This document shows, one piece after another, positions 8,607 to 35,240 of a stretch of 64,000 nucleotides of DNA. Below the pieces are notes generated by a model. That model was not told the DNA's origin, searched no databases, and saw only the letters and a program-made list of their open reading frames with translations. How positions within the stretch are numbered: position 1 is the first letter of the stretch; each line of letters begins with the position of its first letter. The position numbers and the translations under genes are program-made. The stretch lies in the IMG/VR virus record IMGVR_UViG_3300029950_000012. One strand, given 5' to 3'. This stretch comes from a virus.

Positions 8607-8885
8607 ATGCCTAGACCTATCCTTGTTAAAGTTGTATCAATCGAAATCGCAAACACTCCTGTAGAACATGCATCATATCTTTATGAGTACAGCCGCAACG
8701 CTACCAAGGTAGCAGGCACAAAAGAAGTAAAAATGAGCTATGCAATGTTTGTCCGTTATGTTGAAAACTTCTACATGGGTAATGACAACGCTAAACACTT
8801 ATCTTATTACCGCGAAGTGTTATCAAGTATTAACGAACATTACTCTGATATTGAAGGCGCTATACTTATTTTTCAATTCCGTTAA
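8607..8885 (+). CDS. hypothetical protein (92 aa)
   Basis: ORF starts right after the conserved leader. Confidence 0.65.
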   Translation: MPRPILVKVVSIEIANTPVEHASYLYEYSRNATKVAGTKEVKMSYAMFVRYVENFYMGNDNAKHLSYYREVLSSINEHYSDIEGAILIFQFR

Positions 8886-8892
8886 AATAAGC

Positions 8893-8963
8893 TTTACAGG
8901 GGGTTATTAGTCCTATACTATTAACCCACTGAAACGAACAACGCAAAGCGCGGAGCAAACCAA
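8893..8963 (+). promoter_or_regulatory. early promoter + leader + conserved SD box (cassette copy b)
   Basis: TTTACA-17 nt-TACTAT, ACTGAAAC, then CAACGCAAAGCGCGGAGCAAAccaaATG. Confidence 0.65.
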
Positions 8964-12332: not shown

Positions 12333-13253
12333 ATGGCTAAGAAATCATTTGTTAAAAAAGATGTTTACCAAGAAGTTACCAACAAGATCATTGCGAAACT
12401 CGAAGCTGGAACCGTTCCATGGGTTAAAGAGTGGGACAACCAAGGCAACAATCTTTCAAAACCCCTACCTTACAATTTCGACTCCGGCAACATGTACAGT
12501 GGAATGAATATTTTATCATTGTGGATGAGTGAGGAAGAGAACCAATTTACTTCCAATGCCTGGATGACATTCGCACAAGCCAAGAAGAAAGGCGGCAACA
12601 TAATCAAAGGGCAAAAGGGAACGTCTCTATTCTTTTTTAAGTTTGTCGAGAAGGTTTGCGCGGACACTGGGACAGATAAGTCCTACGCAATGCCTAAGCC
12701 CTTCACAGTGTTTAACCTAGACCAGATTGAAGGTATCGAGTTGCCAACGTGTGAGGAGCAACCACAGCCCCATAATGGGCCAATTAATACTGGCGTGTTA
12801 CTCTCTTACATGATCGATCAAGGCATTAAGCTAACAGACGGCAAAAACACTGCTTACTACTCCCCAACTGTTGACCGCATAGGAATGCCACCCCGCGAAC
12901 AGTTCCACAGCGAGAGCGCCTATTTTGGGACTCTGGCGCATGAATGCATACACTCGACTGGACACAAGAAGCGTCTAGACCGATTCAGCAACATAACCGA
13001 CATACTTGACACCGTACCAAGCCCTAAGAAAGAATATGCATTTGAGGAATTGATTGCAGAACTAGGCGCGGCTTTCCTTTGTGCTGAAACCGGAATACAA
13101 AAAGACAATGAACAGACAGCCGCATATATTGGCCACTGGTTAAAGTGTCTTAAGTCCGATAAGAAGTTTATTGCACAAGCCGCAAGCCGTGCATCAAAGG
13201 CGACTAAGTATATAAACGAAGCCGCAGAAATTAAACTAGAAAAGGCCGCATAA
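12333..13253 (+). CDS. ardC: ArdC-like antirestriction protein (ssDNA-binding N-domain + zincin metalloprotease)
   Basis: 306 aa. The N-terminal VPW...PYN..SG..YSG.N.L pattern matches ArdC-N/DUF1738. The C-terminal HECIHSTGH...RLDR is an HExxH zincin as in ArdC. Confidence 0.8.
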   Translation: MAKKSFVKKDVYQEVTNKIIAKLEAGTVPWVKEWDNQGNNLSKPLPYNFDSGNMYSGMNILSLWMSEEENQFTSNAWMTFAQAKKKGGNIIKGQKGTSLFFFKFVEKVCADTGTDKSYAMPKPFTVFNLDQIEGIELPTCEEQPQPHNGPINTGVLLSYMIDQGIKLTDGKNTAYYSPTVDRIGMPPREQFHSESAYFGTLAHECIHSTGHKKRLDRFSNITDILDTVPSPKKEYAFEELIAELGAAFLCAETGIQKDNEQTAAYIGHWLKCLKSDKKFIAQAASRASKATKYINEAAEIKLEKAA

Positions 13254-23631: not shown

Positions 23632-24219
23632 ATGGATTTTGCAATCGTACCTAAAGGCCAAAAGTTTGATTTCTCTCTTGTATCTAAGCAGACTACATTA
23701 GCTAAGCTATATGTTGGTGCTGGTTGGGACATGGCCCAAGAAGGCGCTGATGTTGATTTGGATTTGGTAGCTGTTCTGTTGACTGATGGCAAAGTAACAA
23801 ATAAAGACCATCTGATTTACTTCTCTAATCGTGTTAAGTCTCAGTCTCTTGGTGTGTTTCTCTCTGAAGACAATGTTACAGGCGAAGGTGATGGGGATGA
23901 TGAGTCTATCGTAATTGACTTTGCTAACTTACCTACCGGCGTTAACGGTATCGCTCTTGGATTAATTTGTTACACTGGCGGCATTACCTTGCCGGAAACT
24001 GTTAACACTCACCTACGTATTTGTGATGGCGATAATGAGCAGAGTGAACAGGTAGCGGATGTTGAAATCGAAGGCGCAACTGCGGGCTCTACTGTAGTAC
24101 ATGGCATGACCGTTTCAATGAACGCTGAAGGTCATTGGATAGTAGAGAATGTTGATACTTTCCATAATTGCGGAAATGGTATCGGCGCTGTACAAGGATT
24201 CGGTCAGCTATTTACTTGA
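23632..24219 (+). CDS. terD: TerD-domain stress protein
   Basis: 195 aa. GAGWD...DLDLVAVLL...SEDNVTGEGDGDDESIVIDF contains the Ca-binding GDN.TGEGDGDDE signature of TerD/TerZ/TerE proteins. Confidence 0.85.
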   Translation: MDFAIVPKGQKFDFSLVSKQTTLAKLYVGAGWDMAQEGADVDLDLVAVLLTDGKVTNKDHLIYFSNRVKSQSLGVFLSEDNVTGEGDGDDESIVIDFANLPTGVNGIALGLICYTGGITLPETVNTHLRICDGDNEQSEQVADVEIEGATAGSTVVHGMTVSMNAEGHWIVENVDTFHNCGNGIGAVQGFGQLFT

Positions 24220-24370
24220 CTGATAAGAAGACCTTCGCCAGGGGTTGCCCCCGGTGTGAGAGTTGAAGGAGGTTTCAACCCATTTGCTACGATATGGAAT
24301 GGTTTTAAAAGCTTCCTACAGTTAATACTCCACACGTTAGCGAAAGTTCTGGATTAACCATAAAAATAAA

Positions 24371-24400
24371 AAGCCCTGTTCGCACACGCAGGGCTTTTTT
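24371..24400 (+). terminator. rho-independent terminator 18 nt upstream of the terC start
   Basis: AAGCCCTG-(10 nt)-CAGGGCTT followed by TTTTTT. The RBS CAGGAG and the ATG follow immediately. Confidence 0.75.
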
Positions 24401-24417
24401 ATGTCAGGAGAAACACA

Positions 24418-25272
24418 ATGTTAGAATTAATATTTATTATCTTTGTTGCAATAATGATTACCATCGAATGGGCGTACCATCGTGAACACCCAAGTACTTT
24501 TAACTCTGCTTTAGCTTTTACCGGCGCATACATTGGCGCGGCTTTCATTTTCTCTGGTGTCGTTGCAGGGCTAAGAGGGCATGAAGCTGCTGGTATGTTC
24601 TTAATGGGCTATACGCTTGAAAAAATGCTGGCGTTCGATAACCTATTCGTATTCAGTATTATACTAACCTACTTTAAAATAGGCGCGTTAGAGAAACACA
24701 AAGCCCTACACTATGGCATTATTGGCGCTGCTGTTTTCCGTCTAATCTTCACTGTGATAGGTGTTGAGTTCATGGAGTACTTCGGCCCCACATTCGACTT
24801 AGTGTTTGCTGCAATGATTCTGTACTCGGTTTATCTAATGATGAGTGCGAGTGATGAAGACGACGCAACGAACTATGATGAATTGTGGTGGGTCATTAAT
24901 ATCAGAAAAGTATTCCCGACCATTTCTATATTCTGGCTTGTAGTAATCATTATAGAGATAAGCGACGTGTTGTTTGCCTTTGATAGTGTACCCGCCGTAA
25001 TCGCCGTCACTAAAGACCCCGCACTGATTTACTTTGCAATGATGTTTGCTATATTAGGGCTACGCCAAATGTACTTTGTAATAGACGCCATGAAAAATTA
25101 CATGCGCTACATTGATACGGCTATATATTGTATCTTGGTTTTCATCGCGATTAAGCTAGTCGCAAGTGGTTTGTTTGCCTTCCATATGAATGAGTTGTAT
25201 AGCTTAGCGATTGTTGCTACTATACTACTTATTGGGGCTACTGCTTCACTGGCAAACCCAAAAGAAAGTTAA
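24418..25272 (+). CDS. terC: TerC/Alx-family integral membrane protein
   Basis: 284 aa and multi-pass. YTLEKMLAFDNLFVF and the repeat SDVLFAFDSVPAV match the duplicated E..LS.DN.FVF core of the TerC family. Confidence 0.85.
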   Translation: MLELIFIIFVAIMITIEWAYHREHPSTFNSALAFTGAYIGAAFIFSGVVAGLRGHEAAGMFLMGYTLEKMLAFDNLFVFSIILTYFKIGALEKHKALHYGIIGAAVFRLIFTVIGVEFMEYFGPTFDLVFAAMILYSVYLMMSASDEDDATNYDELWWVINIRKVFPTISIFWLVVIIIEISDVLFAFDSVPAVIAVTKDPALIYFAMMFAILGLRQMYFVIDAMKNYMRYIDTAIYCILVFIAIKLVASGLFAFHMNELYSLAIVATILLIGATASLANPKES

Positions 25273-31944: not shown

Positions 31945-32601
31945 ATGAGTAAGTTAACACTAGAACAAATTGCGGCCATTACGATTGGTGATTTAATCAA
32001 CATCGCGGTATCATCGGTTTCCGGTAGTACTGCTGCTGAAGAAACTGAAACTAAAACTGAAAAGCCTGCTAAAAAAGCGAAAGCGAAAAAAGCGGAAAAA
32101 GTAGAAAAGAAGCCAGCTAAAAAAGCTAAAAAGGTTTCTAAAGTCGCTCTTACCAAATTGCATAAAGAAGCAAAAGCGGAAGAAGCTGATGAAGCCAAAT
32201 CCGCACTAGCAGTGTTTGACGCAAAGAAAGTCGCAGATGTTGATGAAGATGATTATCCAGCATTGGCAGTATTGTTGCAGCAAGTGATCGACGGCGAATA
32301 CGAAGAAGAAGAAAAGGACGAAGAAGAAGAAGAAGAAGAAGATGACGACGAAAAAGAAGAGGCAGATGACGAAGAAGTCAACGCTGAAACTCTTACCGCT
32401 TTGATCAACGAAGGCTTAGAAGACGAAGACCTCGAAGATGAAGTTATCGACGCAATCAAAGGCTATAAGCTTAAGCCTGCGAAGAAAGATAAAAAAGTGA
32501 CGTTAAAGTCTGTTGAAAAATTGTCTGACGAAGACATTGAAGAGTGCTACACAGAAGTACTCGACATCGTTGAGCCAGAAGATGAAGAAGACGACGATTA
32601 A
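31945..32601 (+). CDS. bipolar Lys/Ala-rich and poly-acidic protein (218 aa)
   Basis: KPAKKAKAKKAEKVEKKPAKKAKKVSK block followed by EEEEKDEEEEEEEDDDEKEEADDEE and further D/E runs. The (GAA)n-type tract at about 32296-32350 is coding. Confidence 0.6.
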   Translation: MSKLTLEQIAAITIGDLINIAVSSVSGSTAAEETETKTEKPAKKAKAKKAEKVEKKPAKKAKKVSKVALTKLHKEAKAEEADEAKSALAVFDAKKVADVDEDDYPALAVLLQQVIDGEYEEEEKDEEEEEEEDDDEKEEADDEEVNAETLTALINEGLEDEDLEDEVIDAIKGYKLKPAKKDKKVTLKSVEKLSDEDIEECYTEVLDIVEPEDEEDDD

Positions 32602-32604
32602 GCA

Positions 32605-32633
32605 TTGCTTTATCTAAAATAGTGTATTACTAT
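32605..32633 (+). promoter_or_regulatory. sigma70-like promoter at the head of the ORF-free structured locus
   Basis: TTGCTT-17 nt-TACTAT read directly, immediately after the stop at 32601. Confidence 0.5.
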
Positions 32634-32763
32634 TGTTGAACTTGCTAAGGGAACCCCAAGCTCCCTTAGCACTATAACCGAAACCCTTCTCTATGTTGAA
32701 GATGCTCGATACGTCTTTTCATTAGAGTCATAGAGAAGGTGAGTAGGCCAAGTGTTTATTTGG

Positions 32764-32831
32764 AAGGGGTTAGCTCAATGGTAGAGCCCTGGCCAAGGTC
32801 AAAGACGGGGGTTCAATTCCCTTACCCTTTC
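32764..32831 (+). tRNA. tRNA-like element 1 (tRNA-Gly(GCC)-related sequence, non-canonical anticodon arm)
   Basis: Acceptor AAGGGGT/ACCCTTT with a G.U at the third pair. D arm GCTC-AATGGTA-GAGC. T arm GGGGG-TTCAATT-CCCTT. Only 19 nt lie between the D and T stems (CCT-GGCCA-AGG), so there is no 5-bp stem with 7-nt loop. About 68 nt long, with no encoded CCA in register. Confidence 0.45.
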
Positions 32832-32951
32832 CAAATAAGCATTTTAACTCAACCAATGTAAGTTGGTATATTAGGGCATGTCATCTGACACCTAACCGAG
32901 TAAAACGACTAGGGGTATCCCCAGTCAAATAAATTAAAAGTGTTCATTCAG

Positions 32952-33022
32952 ATGGGGTATAGCGACAACGGTAGAGCACCTTAGTACAAGGCGGATGGAG
33001 GGTTCGACTCCCCAGCCCTATC
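32952..33022 (+). tRNA. tRNA-like element 2 (non-canonical D, anticodon and T stems)
   Basis: Acceptor ATGGGGT/GCCCTAT with a G.U at the third pair. D region AGCGACAACGGTAGAGC. Anticodon-position hairpin CCTT-AGTAC-AAGG. T loop TTCGACT closed by only 3 clean pairs. Confidence 0.4.
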
Positions 33023-33138
33023 TGAATGAGCATTTAAAAGAATTTCCTGTATAGTACTAGTGTAACGACTGGGAGGGCGCGGGACGCAATGTAGCATCGG
33101 GGTTGACTGACGTTCTGCCTGCTACACTTTTGATTGAC

Positions 33139-33174
33139 TATTCTCTCAGACCTAGCGCTAGGTCTGAGAGAATA
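33139..33174. repeat. 36-nt perfect palindrome
   Basis: TATTCTCTCAGACCTAGC|GCTAGGTCTGAGAGAATA read directly (18-nt arms, no spacer). Confidence 0.9.
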
Positions 33175-33294
33175 TGTGAGGGCTGTTACCCTTGCGGTCA
33201 ATTACGAGTAAGGACGATAAGAATTAAAAGTTTTACCAGTAGACTTAAATTAAATTTTAGCGTCTGCAATCGTAGTTTACTGGTAGATTAAATA

Positions 33295-33343
33295 TGGATG
33301 GTTAGAGTTGGTAGCTCTTAGGTTCGATTCCTAAAACCATCCA
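33295..33343 (+). ncRNA. tRNA-like element 3: acceptor + D-like hairpin + T arm, no anticodon arm
   Basis: TGGATGGTT pairs with AACCATCCA (9 bp). D-like hairpin GAG-TTGGTAG-CTC. Perfect T arm TTAGG-TTCGATT-CCTAA. Only about 49 nt, with nothing between the D-like and T arms. Confidence 0.5.
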
Positions 33344-33779
33344 CCGAATAGGAGTCCTTCGCCTCAATCGGCTTAGGGAAATATACTGTAGTAACCAGCG
33401 CTTCGGGCGGGTTGCCATAGGGCTAGTTGGAAATCTAAGCAGCTCCACCGAATAGAACAAGTGGCAGTCAATTGACTTTATAATCGAAAATTGGGGAAAG
33501 CTGCACACTTGTTCTTCCTATCCTCTGAGGGGTGGACGCAAGCACCTAGACCGGCGTTCGGAAGCGGCCTAGTAGTAAAGGGTACAGTAAAAGCCTTGTA
33601 CTTCCGATAGCAAATAAGAGGTTAGGTGAATCGTTTACGTCAGGTTGCGAGAACCCTTATAAAGTGAGTGCATTCAATCACTCCAACCGTATTTCTTAAT
33701 GGGCCGGTATTAACTGGAATAGGCGCTAGTTAATTCCTATAAAGAGAGTAGCTAACCTTACTACTCCGGCCCCACCTAT

Positions 33780-33838
33780 AAGAGGAAGGTACGTGGATTG
33801 TCAAACGCCATGCGCCATGTATTGACCTCCTCTTTTTA
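33780..33838 (+). terminator. long interrupted helix followed by a U-run (possible 3' end of the structured RNA)
   Basis: AAGAGGAAGGT+ACGTGG pairs with CCATGT+ACCTCCTCTT (16 pairs, one bulge, one 4-nt internal loop), then TTTTT at 33833-33837. Confidence 0.4.
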
Positions 33839-33903
33839 CTGTGTGACTCTCCTCCCGAAAGCCGTCTCTTTTAGCGTTGATGGTGAGTAGGGACTTTTTT
33901 CTC

Positions 33904-33932
33904 TTTACTTCCTTAAAAGACTGTAGTACTAT
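33904..33932 (+). promoter_or_regulatory. sigma70-like promoter for the replication operon
   Basis: TTTACT-17 nt-TACTAT read directly, 40 nt upstream of the 33972 start. Confidence 0.55.
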
Positions 33933-33971
33933 AAAACCTCAATTTTGTAAAATATTTTTTGAGGCACTTTT

Positions 33972-35240
33972 ATGGCACATAGTAGAATAGGGCCAAGTGC
34001 TGCTAAGCGATGGATGAATTGCACAGGCAGCATAGACCTTATACAATTCCTTAGATCACAAGAAAAAATACCCCTGAAGAGTCCTACAAACAAGGCTTCG
34101 GAACTGGGTACCGCTGTCCACTATGTGGGTGAGCAAGTCCTACTAAAAACACGTCGCGTTAACCAGTTTAAAAATATTCCTGTTAAAGTTGATGAGATGA
34201 AGTTTCCTGTGTTGCTGTCCCAAAAGAATTTGGATGATGCACAGGCTTACGTAAGCTTCTGTAGGAAAGCAAAGGAGCAGCACCCTGGTAAGATGGTAGT
34301 CGAAGAGACTTACGACCTTAGTAAGGTGTATGACGCCCCAATAGGCGGCACGACTGACTGTAGTATCGTTGGCAGAGTGCTACAAGTAATTGATTATAAG
34401 AATGGAGCCTTTCCTGTTTACGCAGAGGGCAACCCACAAATTATGATCTATGGCTTAGGTGCCTATTATAAATATAGAAAGGTGAAAAAGATTCGCAAAA
34501 TTCGCCTTGTTATATTCCAACCAAACGCCCGTGATAAACATGGCCCCGTTCGTGAACACACAATGCACCTTCATGAATTATTGAAGTGGGAAAAAGAGGA
34601 ATTAATCCCTGCACTAGAAACTATCAAAAGTGGTAAAGGTGTGCTAATACCTTCCCGCGAAAACTGCATGTTCTGTGAAGCTAAAGGGTTTTGTAAGGCT
34701 CTTAAAGAACAGAAACCAAAACTTGTCAAGGATATGATTGTAAGTTCTTCGCTTATACCAATGCTTGATTCAGGTAGTTTGCCAAACCCAGAAGAGTTAA
34801 ACGAAAAAGAATTGATAAGTGTTTTACAAAACGCCGATCATGTAATAGAATTTTACACAGCTTGTAAGAAACTTGCCAAATCGAAACTTGAAACCAACAA
34901 GACTGCCTTACCTGGCTTCGGACTAAGACCAAACCTTGGGAACCGTAGTTACCGATCTGACAAGATTCTTACAAGCACCCTAGAGGAGTACGACGTATCC
35001 TTAAGGAGTATAAAGGTAGCAGCCAGCGAACGCTTCATGACTGTTCCCGAATTAGAGTCGTATGTAAGTACTACACTAGAATGGGATAAGGATGATGTTG
35101 AAGAGTTCATGGATAAAGTTACTACAAGAAAGGTATCTAGCCACGCGCTAGTCCCTGTCTCTGAGGCAGCAAATGATTTTGCCGAAGCGATGAAATCTAA
35201 TCCGAAAATCAGAAAACGACGTAAAAAGGTAATAAGTTAA
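33972..35240 (+). CDS. PD-(D/E)XK exonuclease, DUF2800/Cas4-like
   Basis: 422 aa. N-terminal GPSAAKRWMNCTGS, core GGTTDCSIV...VIDYKNG, and C-terminal Cys cluster CMFCEAKGFC. Confidence 0.75.
   Translation: MAHSRIGPSAAKRWMNCTGSIDLIQFLRSQEKIPLKSPTNKASELGTAVHYVGEQVLLKTRRVNQFKNIPVKVDEMKFPVLLSQKNLDDAQAYVSFCRKAKEQHPGKMVVEETYDLSKVYDAPIGGTTDCSIVGRVLQVIDYKNGAFPVYAEGNPQIMIYGLGAYYKYRKVKKIRKIRLVIFQPNARDKHGPVREHTMHLHELLKWEKEELIPALETIKSGKGVLIPSRENCMFCEAKGFCKALKEQKPKLVKDMIVSSSLIPMLDSGSLPNPEELNEKELISVLQNADHVIEFYTACKKLAKSKLETNKTALPGFGLRPNLGNRSYRSDKILTSTLEEYDVSLRSIKVAASERFMTVPELESYVSTTLEWDKDDVEEFMDKVTTRKVSSHALVPVSEAANDFAEAMKSNPKIRKRRKKVIS

What the first reader, a model, noticed from the sequence alone, without database searches (positions are those of the whole stretch)
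32605..33838. ORF-free 1.2 kb locus that looks like a dedicated, highly structured RNA gene
A 1.37 kb stretch lies between the K/E-rich gene (stop 32601) and the replication operon (start 33972). It has no ORF with a start context. This is the only such gap inside an otherwise tightly packed, ATGA-coupled gene string.

The stretch has its own promoter-like site, TTGCTT-17-TACTAT at 32605-32633. It ends in a 16-pair interrupted helix plus U-run at 33780-33838. A separate promoter at 33904-33932 then restarts transcription for the nuclease gene.

In between I can read a chain of strong helices:
- 9 bp at 32644/32662
- 11 bp at 32685/32729
- two 15-bp helices that close tRNA-like modules
- a 36-nt perfect palindrome
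- a 14-pair helix at 33454/33501
- a GC-rich 7-bp helix at 33701/33766 that encloses a 7-bp hairpin
- an 11-mer, CCACCGAATAG, repeated at 33341 and 33445

Large ornate RNAs such as GOLLD and ROOL are known to sit in phages next to or around tRNAs, so this could belong to one of those classes or to a new one. I cannot assign a class from memory.
Basis: partly seen in the sequence, partly recalled or inferred. Interest (0 to 1): 0.85.

Follow-up and report, generated by a model that had tools for sequence, protein, structure and literature searches.

The report
Phage array of non-decoding tRNA-like RNAs
The gene-free 1.4 kb stretch is a real, conserved RNA-coding locus of a marine phage, but it is a string of about fifteen small folded RNA modules, five of them tRNA look-alikes that cannot read codons, and not one giant RNA; modules are swapped, gained and lost between close relatives.

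Summary

The RNA-gene reading is supported by comparison with nine related loci from ENA/Logan metagenomes. Paired positions change together: 27 of 35 double substitutions keep pairing against the 89%-identical relative L212, and module alignments are 94-97% paired.

The "one large ornate RNA" reading is not supported. Rfam 15 gives no GOLLD, ROOL, tmRNA or YrlA hit. The locus is modular. It holds five tRNA-like elements without a 7-nt anticodon loop, or without an anticodon arm. Two of them are closed by a conserved 21-bp helix with invariant G.U pairs. It also holds conserved hairpins, two loop-E-type hairpins and a candidate pseudoknot.

Relatives carry 390-1370 nt versions. tRNA-like interiors are swapped between 99%-identical phages. 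A canonical tRNA-Pro sits at the same locus in one relative.

Best reading: a processed polycistronic ncRNA operon that yields tRNA mimics. The function is inferred (decoys for a tRNA-binding host factor) and untested. This is a new variant of a known kind.

The parts
32605..32633 (+). P1, a promoter-like site (TTGCTT-17-TACTAT) directly after the K/E-rich gene stop
   Evidence: Sequence. A site of the same form sits at the same position in the relatives. Examples are TTGCAT-17-TACTAT in L212, TTGCAG-17-TACTAT in L013/L014, and TTGACA-17-TAAAAT or TAGAAT in L056/L057/L058/L213. It is below the threshold of the consensus scan. Transcription was not tested.
32643..32671 (+). 5' hairpin, 10 bp, with a C-rich loop (ACCCCAAGC)
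   Evidence: z -4.24. Two compensatory pair changes against L212 and none broken. Analogous hairpins with C-rich loops occur in L003 and L013/L014.
32678..32747 (+). 5' loop-E-type hairpin: CC-GAAA-CC...GG-UGAGUA-GG, with an inner hairpin whose loop is UCGAUAC
   Evidence: z -2.92. The GAAA/RAGUA internal loop and the GCUCGAUAC apex are conserved in L212, L056, L057, L058 and L213. The flanking C-G pair changes to U-A in L212.
32750..32844 (+). M1, a tRNA-like cloverleaf (core 32764-32831) closed by a 21-bp helix. Its 'anticodon' arm is a 4-5 bp stem with a 4-nt loop. It has a G3.U70 pair.
   Evidence: Rfam tRNA 44.9 bits, with 3 nt where the model expects 6 in the anticodon loop. ARAGORN gives no call. 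z -4.67. Covariation and three invariant wobble pairs are seen in alignment A4. The interior is replaced by a different tRNA-like sequence in L212 inside the same stem.
32852..32926 (+). Three short hairpins between M1 and M2
   Evidence: z -2.69. About 90% identical in L212, with one compensatory change.
32938..33035 (+). M2, the second long-stem tRNA-like module (core about 32951-33022). It has a 5-nt 'anticodon' loop and a G3.U70 pair.
   Evidence: z -5.74. 85.7% identical to L013 2647-2763, although that phage is only 55% identical in the nuclease protein. It is absent as a clean indel in L212 and is flanked by UAAAAG on both sides in the window. CM R2 scores it at 107 bits on + and 31 bits on -.
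33040..33124 (+). Conserved segment without a confident fold
   Evidence: z +0.49. Alignable with L212 throughout. Role unknown.
33126..33209 (+). Y-shaped element: a long hairpin containing the perfect palindrome 33139-33174, plus a side hairpin
   Evidence: z -7.31. L212 keeps the same three-helix shape, with 7 compensatory and 5 single pair-keeping changes. Its long hairpin is imperfect there, so the perfect palindrome is specific to the window.
33232..33287 (+). Hairpin D: a stem of about 11 bp with an invariant loop motif AGCRUCUG
   Evidence: z -4.70. Seven sequences are 93.9% paired, 7 of 10 stem pairs are double-changed, and 0/500 shuffles reach the covariation score. CM R1 finds it only in the close clade.
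33296..33346 (+). M3, a mini tRNA-like element: an 8-bp acceptor stem, a D-like arm and a T arm (UUCGAUU), with no anticodon arm and the 3' tail ACCG
   Evidence: z -3.40. Weak tRNA-Sec match of 18.8 bits. L212 has the same element, with the acceptor stem changed from GGAUGGUU/AACCAUCC to GGGUCUGU/ACAGGCCC and the tail ACCGAAUAG retained.
33351..33450 (+). X, a 100-nt cloverleaf-like module ending GCAGCUCC-ACCG
Evidence: Homologous to part of the group B loci, where L058 has GGGGCU.../...AGCUCCA and a covarying T-like arm. It is absent in L212. Its own fold is not significant, z -0.83.
33454..33515 (+). S, a stacked three-helix hairpin with the invariant core CAAUU...AUCGRAAAUUGGGGAAA
   Evidence: z -4.49. 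Four sequences are 96.5% paired, against at most 50% for slid controls. 11 of 22 pairs are double-changed, and 0/500 shuffles reach the score. One further compensatory change is seen in L212.
33546..33607 (+). PK, a candidate H-type pseudoknot. S1 is 33546-33553/33565-33572. S2 is UCGGAAG 33558-33564 / CUUCCGA 33601-33607. An inner hairpin lies between them.
   Evidence: Read from the sequences. S2 is invariant. S1 covaries across CACUG/CGGUG, CAUUG/CAAUG, UAGACCG/CGGCCUA and UAGAUCG/CGAUCUA. Only four distinct sequences are available. MFE folding cannot show a pseudoknot. Tentative.
33615..33698 (+). Hairpin-like insert specific to the window
   Evidence: Absent as a clean indel in L212. z -1.23.
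33701..33776 (+). T5, a two-armed element closed by GGGCCGG/CCGGCCC, with the 3' tail CACC
   Evidence: z -2.70. Conserved in L212, with 2 compensatory and 4 single pair-keeping changes. It is less tRNA-like than M1-M3.
33780..33839 (+). Terminator-like interrupted helix plus U-run
   Evidence: z -2.56. The base of the stem and the U-run are conserved in L212 while the apex varies. There is no counterpart in L003.
33853..33893 (+). 3' loop-E-type hairpin (CCC-GAAA-stem-GAGUA-GGG), followed by a U-run
   Evidence: Same consensus in L212, L013, L056, L057 and L058, with stem covariation. It always lies just upstream of P2.
33904..33932 (+). P2, the promoter-like site for the nuclease/SSB/PolA operon (TTTACT-17-TACTAT)
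   Evidence: Sequence. Conserved in L212, and as TTGCTT-17-TAGTAT in L056. It marks the end of the RNA unit.

Best explanation
SHOWN
- The gap 32602-33971 is a conserved non-coding RNA locus on the + strand of a roughly 74-kb tailed phage. It lies between the primase/K-E-rich genes and the nuclease-SSB-PolA operon.
- It is a tandem array of about fifteen independently folding modules.
- Five modules copy the shape of tRNA but cannot decode. M1 and M2 are cloverleaves with 4-nt and 5-nt 'anticodon' loops. Their acceptor stems continue into a conserved helix, 21 bp in all, with invariant G.U pairs. M3 is an acceptor/D/T 'top half'. X and T5 are looser cloverleaf-like elements.
- The remaining modules are conserved hairpins (5' hairpin, D, S, a Y-shaped element), two loop-E-type hairpins at the two ends, and a candidate pseudoknot.
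- Modules behave as cassettes. They are inserted or deleted cleanly at A/U-rich or repeated junctions. The tRNA-like interiors are exchanged inside their conserved closing helix between otherwise near-identical phages.

INFERRED
- The array is transcribed from P1 to the terminator at 33780-33839 as one precursor.
- Host tRNA- and rRNA-processing enzymes (RNase P/Z on the tRNA-like elbows, RNase III or E on the long helices and AAAAG|U linkers) cut it into small stable RNAs.

MOST SPECULATIVE
- The tRNA-like products act as tRNA mimics. They would occupy or divert a host factor that recognises the tRNA elbow and acceptor end, for example a tRNA-directed defence nuclease or nucleotidyltransferase. 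The rapid cassette turnover would then reflect an arms race.

CONFIDENCE
- About 0.85 that this is a functional modular ncRNA locus with non-decoding tRNA-like RNAs.
- About 0.5 for the precursor-and-processing step.
- About 0.25 for the decoy function.
For: Not coding
- No ORF over 68 aa, and no gene called in the gap in the window or in any close relative.

Strand
- Whole-locus MFE is -452.7 kcal/mol on + and -408.6 on -.
- CM R2 scores the long-stem modules at 92-117 bits on + and 24-40 bits on -.
- The wobble pairs are invariant.

Stability
- Ten of sixteen segments have z <= -2.5.

Conservation and covariation
- Window against L212 (primase 89% identical; RNA locus 78% identical where alignable): 153 pairs unchanged, 27 compensatory, 20 single pair-keeping and 29 broken. 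27 of 35 double changes keep pairing, against 6-10 in slid controls.
- S: 96.5% paired, 11 double-changed pairs.
- D: 93.9% paired, 7 double-changed pairs.
- Long-stem module: 97.3% paired, 7 double-changed pairs.
- Loop-E hairpins. Group B X region.

tRNA-likeness without decoding
-.

Same locus holds true tRNAs in relatives
- tRNA-Pro(TGG) in L013/L014.
- tRNA-Pro plus a tRNA-like element in L076.

Cassette behaviour
- L013 and L014 are about 99% identical except for the tRNA-like interiors and the tRNA-Pro stems, which differ by compensatory changes.
- Between the window and L212, the M1 interior is swapped, and M2, X and 33615-33698 are clean indels.
- M2 is 86% identical to a module in a phage whose nuclease is only 55% identical.

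Promoter-like sites
- Conserved at both ends in the relatives examined.
Against: - No expression or processing data exist. Promoters, terminator and cleavage sites are sequence inferences, and neither promoter-like site passes the consensus scan.
- L003 has no terminator before the nuclease gene, so read-through into the operon is possible.
- Only ten loci (six or seven truly distinct) are known. No member was found in IMG/VR, the JGI metagenomes reached through the nuclease, or the GTDB genomes. Covariation statistics therefore rest on few, related sequences.
- X, PK and the 3' loop-E hairpin are not more stable than shuffles.
- No phage gene for an RNA-binding or RNA-modifying partner was recognised.
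- Nothing links the locus to a defence system. The long closing helix would hinder RNase P.
Confidence: 0.6

Rival explanations
1. One reading: one large ornate RNA with a single global architecture. It would be a GOLLD or ROOL relative, or a new class of that type, with tRNA-like parts embedded in it.
For: The unit is 1.2 kb, runs from promoter to terminator, sits in a phage and is rich in helices. The two loop-E hairpins at the ends could hint at end-to-end organisation.
Against: No GOLLD, ROOL or other large-RNA hit even at E<=10. A relative has a 390-nt version with only four modules. Module order differs between clades: hairpin D comes before the tRNA-like element in one and after it in the other. 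Whole modules come and go between 89%-identical phages. No long-range helix is supported by covariation.
Confidence: 0.08
2. A decaying tRNA gene cluster. On this reading the tRNA-like elements are pseudogenes with no function, and the rest is intergenic filler.
For: Relatives carry a true tRNA-Pro at the same locus. ARAGORN rejects all elements in the window. The second module, M2, fails the Rfam tRNA model.
Against: The non-decoding shape is itself conserved. M2 and its L013 counterpart keep the same 4-bp stem and 5-nt loop. Stems keep pairing through compensatory changes. The closing helix, with its invariant G.U pairs, has no counterpart in tRNA genes. Non-tRNA modules such as S and D have invariant loops and covarying stems.
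Confidence: 0.07
3. A long structured 5' leader, or cis-regulatory RNA, of the nuclease-SSB-PolA replication operon. It would work for example by attenuation or as processing-dependent control, and would not be a set of trans-acting RNAs.
For: It lies directly upstream on the same strand. L003 has no terminator between the RNA modules and the nuclease gene. In the window, a terminator-like element followed by a second promoter could form an attenuator arrangement.
Against: A separate promoter-like site P2 is conserved immediately before the operon. In L013/L014 three protein genes, two of them on the opposite strand, separate the RNA locus from the nuclease gene. In more distant relatives the tRNA/tRNA-like genes sit after SSB. 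tRNA-like cassettes are not a known leader design.
Confidence: 0.1
4. A DNA-level element: a replication origin or protein-binding region, in which the palindrome and hairpins would act as cruciforms or operators. The idea comes from its place inside the replication module.
For: It lies between the primase-helicase and the nuclease/SSB/polymerase genes. It contains a perfect 36-bp palindrome.
Against: There are no iterons. Only two-copy repeats of 12-14 nt were found. There is no AT-rich unwinding region, since GC is 0.38-0.50, at or above the flanks. GC skew follows transcription and does not switch here. Folding and CM scores favour one strand. The G.U pairs are conserved. The palindrome is imperfect in L212 while the RNA-type Y shape is kept. 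A DNA role for the palindrome alone cannot be excluded.
Confidence: 0.05
5. Y-RNA-like RNAs. The long-stem tRNA-like modules would bind a host Ro60 (Rsr) ring protein and tether it to an exonuclease, as Yrn1 and YrlA do.
For: The design is the same as that described for D. radiodurans Yrn1: a long stem continuing from the acceptor position and a shortened anticodon loop (PMC4201824). YrlA-type RNAs are known in phages. A weak YrlA match of 23.7 bits, E 0.66, occurs in relative L057.
Against: No TROVE/Ro60 gene is found among all window ORFs of 300 aa or more. The GNCGAAN0-1G motif is absent from the closing helix. The window has no YrlA hit even at E<=10.
Confidence: 0.07

Closest known systems
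Phage tRNA gene islands with co-transcribed small stable RNAs. The example is the phage T4 tRNA region with its species 1 and species 2 RNAs (own knowledge, not checked here).
   Same: A cluster in a phage genome in which tRNAs or tRNA-shaped RNAs and other small structured RNAs lie head to tail. They are presumably made from a common precursor by host RNase P and other processing enzymes. A canonical tRNA-Pro occupies the same locus in relatives.
   Different: In the window none of the elements can decode. Two are locked in a conserved 21-bp closing helix. The accompanying motifs (S, D, loop-E hairpins, PK) match nothing in Rfam 15.
Bacterial and phage Y RNAs (YrlA, Rfam RF02553; D. radiodurans Yrn1), as described in PMC4201824.
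   Same: Non-decoding tRNA mimics with D- and T-like arms, a long stem and a shortened anticodon loop. They are known in phages.
   Different: There is no neighbouring Ro60 gene, no GNCGAA motif and no CM match. In YrlA the long stem leaves from the anticodon side, whereas here it continues the acceptor stem.
tmRNA tRNA-like domain and tRNA-Ala minihelices.
   Same: A 'top-half' tRNA mimic without an anticodon (M3). The acceptor ends resemble GCUCC-ACC(A). G3.U70 is present in M1, M2 and two orthologous modules. That G3.U70 is the alanine identity mark is established knowledge.
   Different: ARAGORN and Rfam find no tmRNA, and no tag reading frame is evident. The 3' ends read ACCG or are buried in a helix. 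Charging was not tested.
GOLLD (RF01998) and ROOL (RF03087) large phage-associated RNAs.
   Same: Phage context, proximity to tRNAs and kilobase scale.
   Different: No CM match at any threshold tried. The organisation is modular and variable, not a conserved global fold.
Phage-encoded tRNAs that counter tRNA-cleaving defence systems, for example T5 tRNA variants against PARIS or retron effectors (own knowledge; the commentary PMC11455837 is listed).
   Same: tRNA-shaped phage RNAs under apparently rapid diversification. Stems of tRNA-Pro and whole tRNA-like cassettes differ between 99%-identical phages.
   Different: Those are functional, decoding tRNAs that replace cleaved host tRNAs. The window's elements cannot decode, so they could act only as decoys or in another role. 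No defence link is shown.

Membership tests
GOLLD / ROOL large RNAs (Rfam) | Match to the family covariance model at or near the gathering score | tested here: not met
   cmscan of the whole window at the gathering threshold, and of 32300-34200 at E<=10, gave no hit to either family. Relatives gave none either.
GOLLD / ROOL large RNAs (Rfam) | A conserved global multi-domain architecture shared by members | tested here: not met
   Locus length ranges from 390 to 1370 nt, and module content and order vary among relatives.
Canonical (decoding) tRNA | Cloverleaf with a 5-bp anticodon stem and a 7-nt loop, recognised by tRNA finders | tested here: not met
   ARAGORN finds 0 genes in the window. 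M1 scores 44.9 bits in Rfam tRNA but has a 4-nt loop. M2 has a 5-nt loop. M3 has no anticodon arm.
Canonical (decoding) tRNA | Acceptor stem, D arm with GG and T arm with a UUCRANU loop (the tRNA elbow) | tested here: met
   M1, M2 and M3 have these elements.
YrlA / bacterial Y RNA (RF02553; PMC4201824) | Encoded within about 4 kb of a Ro60 (TROVE) gene, on the same strand | tested here: not met
   Every window ORF of 300 aa or more was scanned or had precomputed Pfam hits, and none is TROVE. The last 10 kb or so of the contig, and the host genome, were not examined.
YrlA / bacterial Y RNA (RF02553; PMC4201824) | GNCGAAN0-1G motif near the 5' end (the putative Ro60 contact) | tested here: not met
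   The 5' strand of the closing helix is AAGUGUUUAUUUGGAAGGGG. Only the unrelated loop-E hairpins contain NCCGAAAG.
YrlA / bacterial Y RNA (RF02553; PMC4201824) | Match to the Rfam YrlA model | tested here: not met
   No hit in the window at E<=10. The best hit in any relative is 23.7 bits against a gathering score of 69.
YrlA / bacterial Y RNA (RF02553; PMC4201824) | tRNA-like domain joined to a long stem; binds Ro60 | not testable with these tools
   The shape resemblance is present. Binding needs an experiment.
tmRNA | tRNA-like domain plus tag reading frame and pseudoknots, detected by ARAGORN or the Rfam tmRNA models | tested here: not met
   No tmRNA call. No Rfam tmRNA hit is listed.
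Replication origin | Iterons, an AT-rich unwinding element and a strand-skew switch | tested here: not met
Structured functional ncRNA (general) | Base pairs maintained by compensatory substitution in relatives | tested here: met
Structured functional ncRNA (general) | Stable transcript of defined ends | not testable with these tools
   No expression data are available.

The most novel reading that the evidence does not exclude
The long-stem tRNA-like modules are a swappable RNA decoy system. A conserved 21-bp closing helix would serve as a fixed scaffold for processing, stability or recombination. Different non-decoding tRNA mimics would be exchanged into it between phages to neutralise tRNA-directed host immunity, such as anticodon or acceptor-end nucleases and nucleotidyltransferases. 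This would be an RNA-based anti-defence cassette array, with modules S, D and PK as further undescribed functional RNAs.
Probability: 0.2. Interest if true: 0.85.

Novelty: new variant of a known kind. Interest (0 to 1): 0.62.

Why it matters
Phage tRNA genes are usually read as codon-usage helpers or as spare parts against tRNA-cleaving defences. This locus shows a phage lineage maintaining tRNA-shaped RNAs that cannot decode. Their pairing is kept through compensatory changes. They are held in a conserved helix and exchanged like cassettes between near-identical genomes.

If these RNAs are expressed, they are a compact natural set of tRNA mimics whose targets could be found by pull-down. The targets might be RNase P, the CCA-adding enzyme, AlaRS, Ro60-like proteins or defence nucleases.

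The locus also adds several RNA motifs with covariation support that are absent from Rfam 15: S, D, the paired loop-E hairpins and a candidate pseudoknot. Finally, it is a caution that a kilobase of dense helices in a phage is not necessarily a single giant RNA.

Tried and rejected
1. DNA similarity to 50,697 GenBank phages: no match to the locus or to 24 kb around it.

2. Pattern scans gave only chance matches, mostly inside coding sequence.
- PK, S core, long-stem flanks and the group B hairpin D in IMG/VR (inspected). The 80 listed loci of the 111 hairpin-D pattern matches were screened with CM R1 and none matched.
- The group A hairpin D pattern in GTDB genomes (inspected).

3. A JGI metagenome scan with the nuclease alignment found only relatives of 44% identity or less, and these lack the RNA modules.

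4. Origin of replication: rejected.

5. attP/integration site: no integrase was recognised among the large ORFs, and the full cloverleaves with covarying stems are not what an attP core needs.

6. Integron attC or MITE reading of the long-stem modules: no RYYYAAC/GTTRRRY cores and no consistent target-site duplication (sequence).

7. Antisense targets: the invariant loops of D and S have no complementary site elsewhere in the window.

8. tmRNA reading of X and of the 265-nt framed element in L015: no ARAGORN or Rfam support and no convincing tag frame.

9. Partner proteins: the K/E-rich neighbour and nine other small neighbours have no informative Pfam or PHROG family.

10. MAFFT could not align the swapped interiors (L014 in A2), so pair counts for the long-stem module use four sequences only. 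L014 and L057 were instead recovered independently by CM R2.


Full report
CONTEXT

The window is 64 kb of a 74-kb metagenomic contig (ENA ERZ23496371, scaffold_68). NCBI lists it under a 'Thalassobium sp.' MAG.

It is a tailed phage. It has a Mu-type portal, a terminase, a tape-measure protein, a tail tube protein and an E-type capsid protein. It also has a PriCT/DUF5906 primase-helicase, a DUF2800 PD-(D/E)XK nuclease, an Enc34-type SSB, a PolA, an SNF2 helicase, ArdC and TerC/TerD. No GenBank phage is similar at the DNA level.

THE OBSERVATION

The gap 32602-33971 has no ORF over 68 aa and no called gene.

Ten of sixteen segments fold better than dinucleotide shuffles:
- 5' hairpin, z -4.2
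- 5' loop-E hairpin, z -2.9
- M1, z -4.7
- the three short hairpins between M1 and M2, z -2.7
- M2, z -5.7
- palindrome element, z -7.3
- hairpin D, z -4.7
- M3, z -3.4
- S, z -4.5
- T5, z -2.7
- terminator, z -2.6

The + strand folds 44 kcal/mol better than the - strand.

KNOWN FAMILIES

Rfam 15 gives one hit in the whole window: tRNA at 32764-32831, 44.9 bits. In that alignment the anticodon loop has 3 nt where the model expects 6. ARAGORN finds no tRNA or tmRNA. At E<=10 nothing else of note appears. There is no GOLLD, ROOL, tmRNA or YrlA hit.

RELATIVES

The locus is absent from IMG/VR, from the GTDB genomes, and from the JGI contigs reached through the nuclease. Relatives were found through proteins in ENA/Logan assemblies.

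- L212: primase 89% identical.
- L003-L012: nuclease 64% identical, and all ten have an identical RNA region.
- L013 and L014: 55%.
- L056, L057, L058 and L213, called 'group B' here: the nucleases of L056-L058 are 53-55% identical; L213 was reached through its primase, 46% identical.
- L015, L075, L076, L077 and the JGI loci L024-L028: 38-45%.

In every relative down to about 53% identity, the interval after the K/E-rich gene is gene-free and holds recognisably homologous RNA modules. At 42-44% the interval holds small protein genes instead. In L076 a tRNA-Pro(TGG) plus a long tRNA-like gene sit after the SSB gene, and others at that distance also carry long tRNA-like genes there.

ANATOMY OF THE WINDOW LOCUS, + STRAND

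In order along the strand:
- P1, a promoter-like site.
- A 5' hairpin.
- A loop-E-type hairpin (CC-GAAA...RAGUA-GG) with a conserved UCGAUAC apex.
- M1.
- Three short hairpins.
- M2.
- A conserved unstructured segment.
- A Y-shaped element containing the 36-nt palindrome.
- Hairpin D, with the invariant loop AGCRUCUG.
- M3.
- X.
- S, with the invariant core AUCGRAAAUUGGGGAAA.
- A small hairpin.
- A candidate pseudoknot, PK.
- A hairpin insert specific to the window.
- T5.
- A terminator.
- A second loop-E-type hairpin.
- P2, the promoter-like site of the nuclease operon.

M1 and M2 are cloverleaves with normal D and T arms. Their 'anticodon' arms are a 4-5 bp stem with a 4-nt loop (M1) and a 4-bp stem with a 5-nt loop (M2). 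Their acceptor stems run on into a helix, 21 bp in all. M3 is an acceptor/D/T 'top half' with no anticodon arm. None of these can decode.

COVARIATION

The long-stem module was tested on four sequences (window M1 and M2, L013, L003). It is 97.3% paired, against 39-61% for slid controls. Seven pairs changed on both sides. Three wobble pairs are invariant, including G3.U70. A covariance model built from these four sequences recovers two further modules that were not in the training set: L014 at 40.7 bits and L057 at 29.8 bits. It scores the + strand far above the - strand.

Other modules:
- Hairpin D, seven sequences: 93.9% paired, and 7 of 10 stem pairs double-changed.
- S, four sequences: 96.5% paired, and 11 of 22 pairs double-changed.
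- The 3' loop-E hairpin keeps the same structure consensus in all five aligned loci; the 5' one keeps its GAAA/RAGUA loop and apex in the window and group B.
- The group B counterpart of X folds with 11 double-changed pairs.

The best single test is the window against L212. The RNA locus is 78% identical where it can be aligned. Of the predicted pairs, 153 are unchanged, 27 are compensated, 20 are kept by a single change and 29 are broken. Thus 27 of 35 double changes keep pairing, against 6-10 in slid controls. Some of the broken pairs are alignment artefacts at indel borders.

The palindrome is imperfect in L212, but the Y-shaped fold is kept with 7 compensatory changes. It is therefore best read as an RNA element.

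PK rests on four distinct sequences and is tentative.

MODULAR TURNOVER

Length ranges from 390 nt in L003 to 1370 nt in the window. L003 has only a 5' hairpin, one long-stem module, D and PK. Hairpin D precedes the tRNA or tRNA-like element in the window, L212 and L013/L014, but follows it in group B.

Between the window and L212:
- The interior of M1 is replaced by a different tRNA-like sequence inside the same closing helix. ARAGORN calls it an off-register 'tRNA-Ala', and Rfam scores it at 43.7 bits with a shortened anticodon arm.
- M2 is a clean indel, flanked by UAAAAG.
- X is a clean indel, flanked by the two copies of TCCACCGAATAG.
- 33615-33698 is a clean indel.

L013 and L014 are about 99% identical across the region except in three places. 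The long-stem interior is wholly replaced. The tRNA-Pro stems differ by compensatory changes. The next tRNA-like element also differs.

M2 is 86% identical to the L013 module, although the nuclease proteins of the two phages are only 55% identical. That points to module transfer or very strong constraint.

WHAT IT IS NOT

- It is not one globally folded giant RNA, for the reasons above.
- It is not a decayed tRNA cluster, because the non-decoding shapes are themselves conserved and compensated.
- It is not an origin. There are no iterons, no AT-rich element and no skew switch.
- It is not a YrlA-type Y RNA by the family's own criteria. There is no Ro60 gene among all ORFs of 300 aa or more, no GNCGAA motif and no model match. 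The design does resemble Yrn1 as described in PMC4201824.
- It is not a tmRNA.

MECHANISM

Shown: a conserved, strand-specific, modular set of RNA structures that includes non-decoding tRNA mimics, bracketed by conserved promoter-like sites.

Inferred: transcription from P1 to the terminator, followed by processing at the tRNA-like elements and A/U-rich linkers by host RNase P/Z/E/III. This is by analogy with phage and cellular tRNA operons (established knowledge).

Speculative: the mimics engage a host factor that reads the tRNA elbow and acceptor end. The cassette turnover suggests conflict with tRNA-directed defences. The G3.U70 pair in M1, M2 and two orthologous modules is the alanine identity mark (established knowledge). 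However, the 3' end is buried in the helix, and G3.U70 is absent from L212's cassette and from M3, so charging is only a lead.

LIMITS

- There are no expression data.
- Few independent sequences are known.
- The host is unknown. The contig's 42% GC does not fit the Rhodobacteraceae label.
- The remaining 10 kb or so of the contig was not examined.

Noticed in passing
L013 2660-2990 versus L014 3310-3640: Two phage contigs are about 99% identical across the region but differ in three places. The interior of the long-stem tRNA-like module differs entirely. The tRNA-Pro(TGG) anticodon and T stems differ by compensatory changes. The following tRNA-like element also differs.
   Followed up: partly
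L015 3826-4092: A roughly 265-nt AU-rich element lies after the SSB gene of a 44% relative. It is framed by a tRNA-like acceptor stem (ACUUGGA/UCCAAGU), a T arm and UCCA. It contains GAAUUGGGGAAG, which resembles the invariant core of module S. ARAGORN makes no tRNA or tmRNA call, and the fold has z -1.45.
   Followed up: partly
L056 521-616, L057 1016-1114, L213 8509-8608: Group B tRNA-like genes have normal acceptor, D and T arms and an encoded CCA. They carry an insertion of about 26 nt in the anticodon loop that forms a hairpin with the conserved loop CANNCAUCA. ARAGORN gives inconsistent calls for them: a 4-base anticodon, Gly(ccc) and Gly(gcc).
   Followed up: partly
L076 4453-4529 and 4633-4718; L024 3914-4008; L025 2495-2605: In more distant relatives a tRNA-Pro(TGG) and/or long tRNA-like genes (87-111 nt, some ending in CCA) lie after the SSB gene, not before the nuclease gene. 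The association with odd tRNA-like genes is therefore older than the window's locus.
   Followed up: partly
window 31945-32601: The K/E/D-rich low-complexity protein directly upstream matches no Pfam or PHROG family, yet a counterpart keeps its place before the RNA locus in the relatives. In group B the -35 of P1 lies inside its last codons.
   Followed up: partly
window 33050-33059 versus 33924-33933: TATAGTACTA is an inverted copy of the -10 region of P2. On the - strand it reads like the same -10 box, but no -35 was seen. An antisense promoter is possible.
   Followed up: no
window 12333-13253 and 23632-25272: The phage carries an ArdC-N plus zincin metallopeptidase (anti-restriction type) gene. 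It also carries adjacent TerD-like and TerC-like genes.
   Followed up: no
L003 8153-9300 and L005 versus L004: Downstream of SSB, L004 has PolA. L003 and L005 have different genes there, including a SASA-domain protein. L003 also contains a run of N at about 8813-8932. This is either a variable region or a scaffolding artefact.
   Followed up: no
L013 3304-5050 / L014 3958-5704: In these relatives three small genes are inserted between the RNA locus and the nuclease gene. Two are on the opposite strand (126 and 177 aa) and one is on the same strand (122 aa). None has a Pfam hit on record.
   Followed up: no
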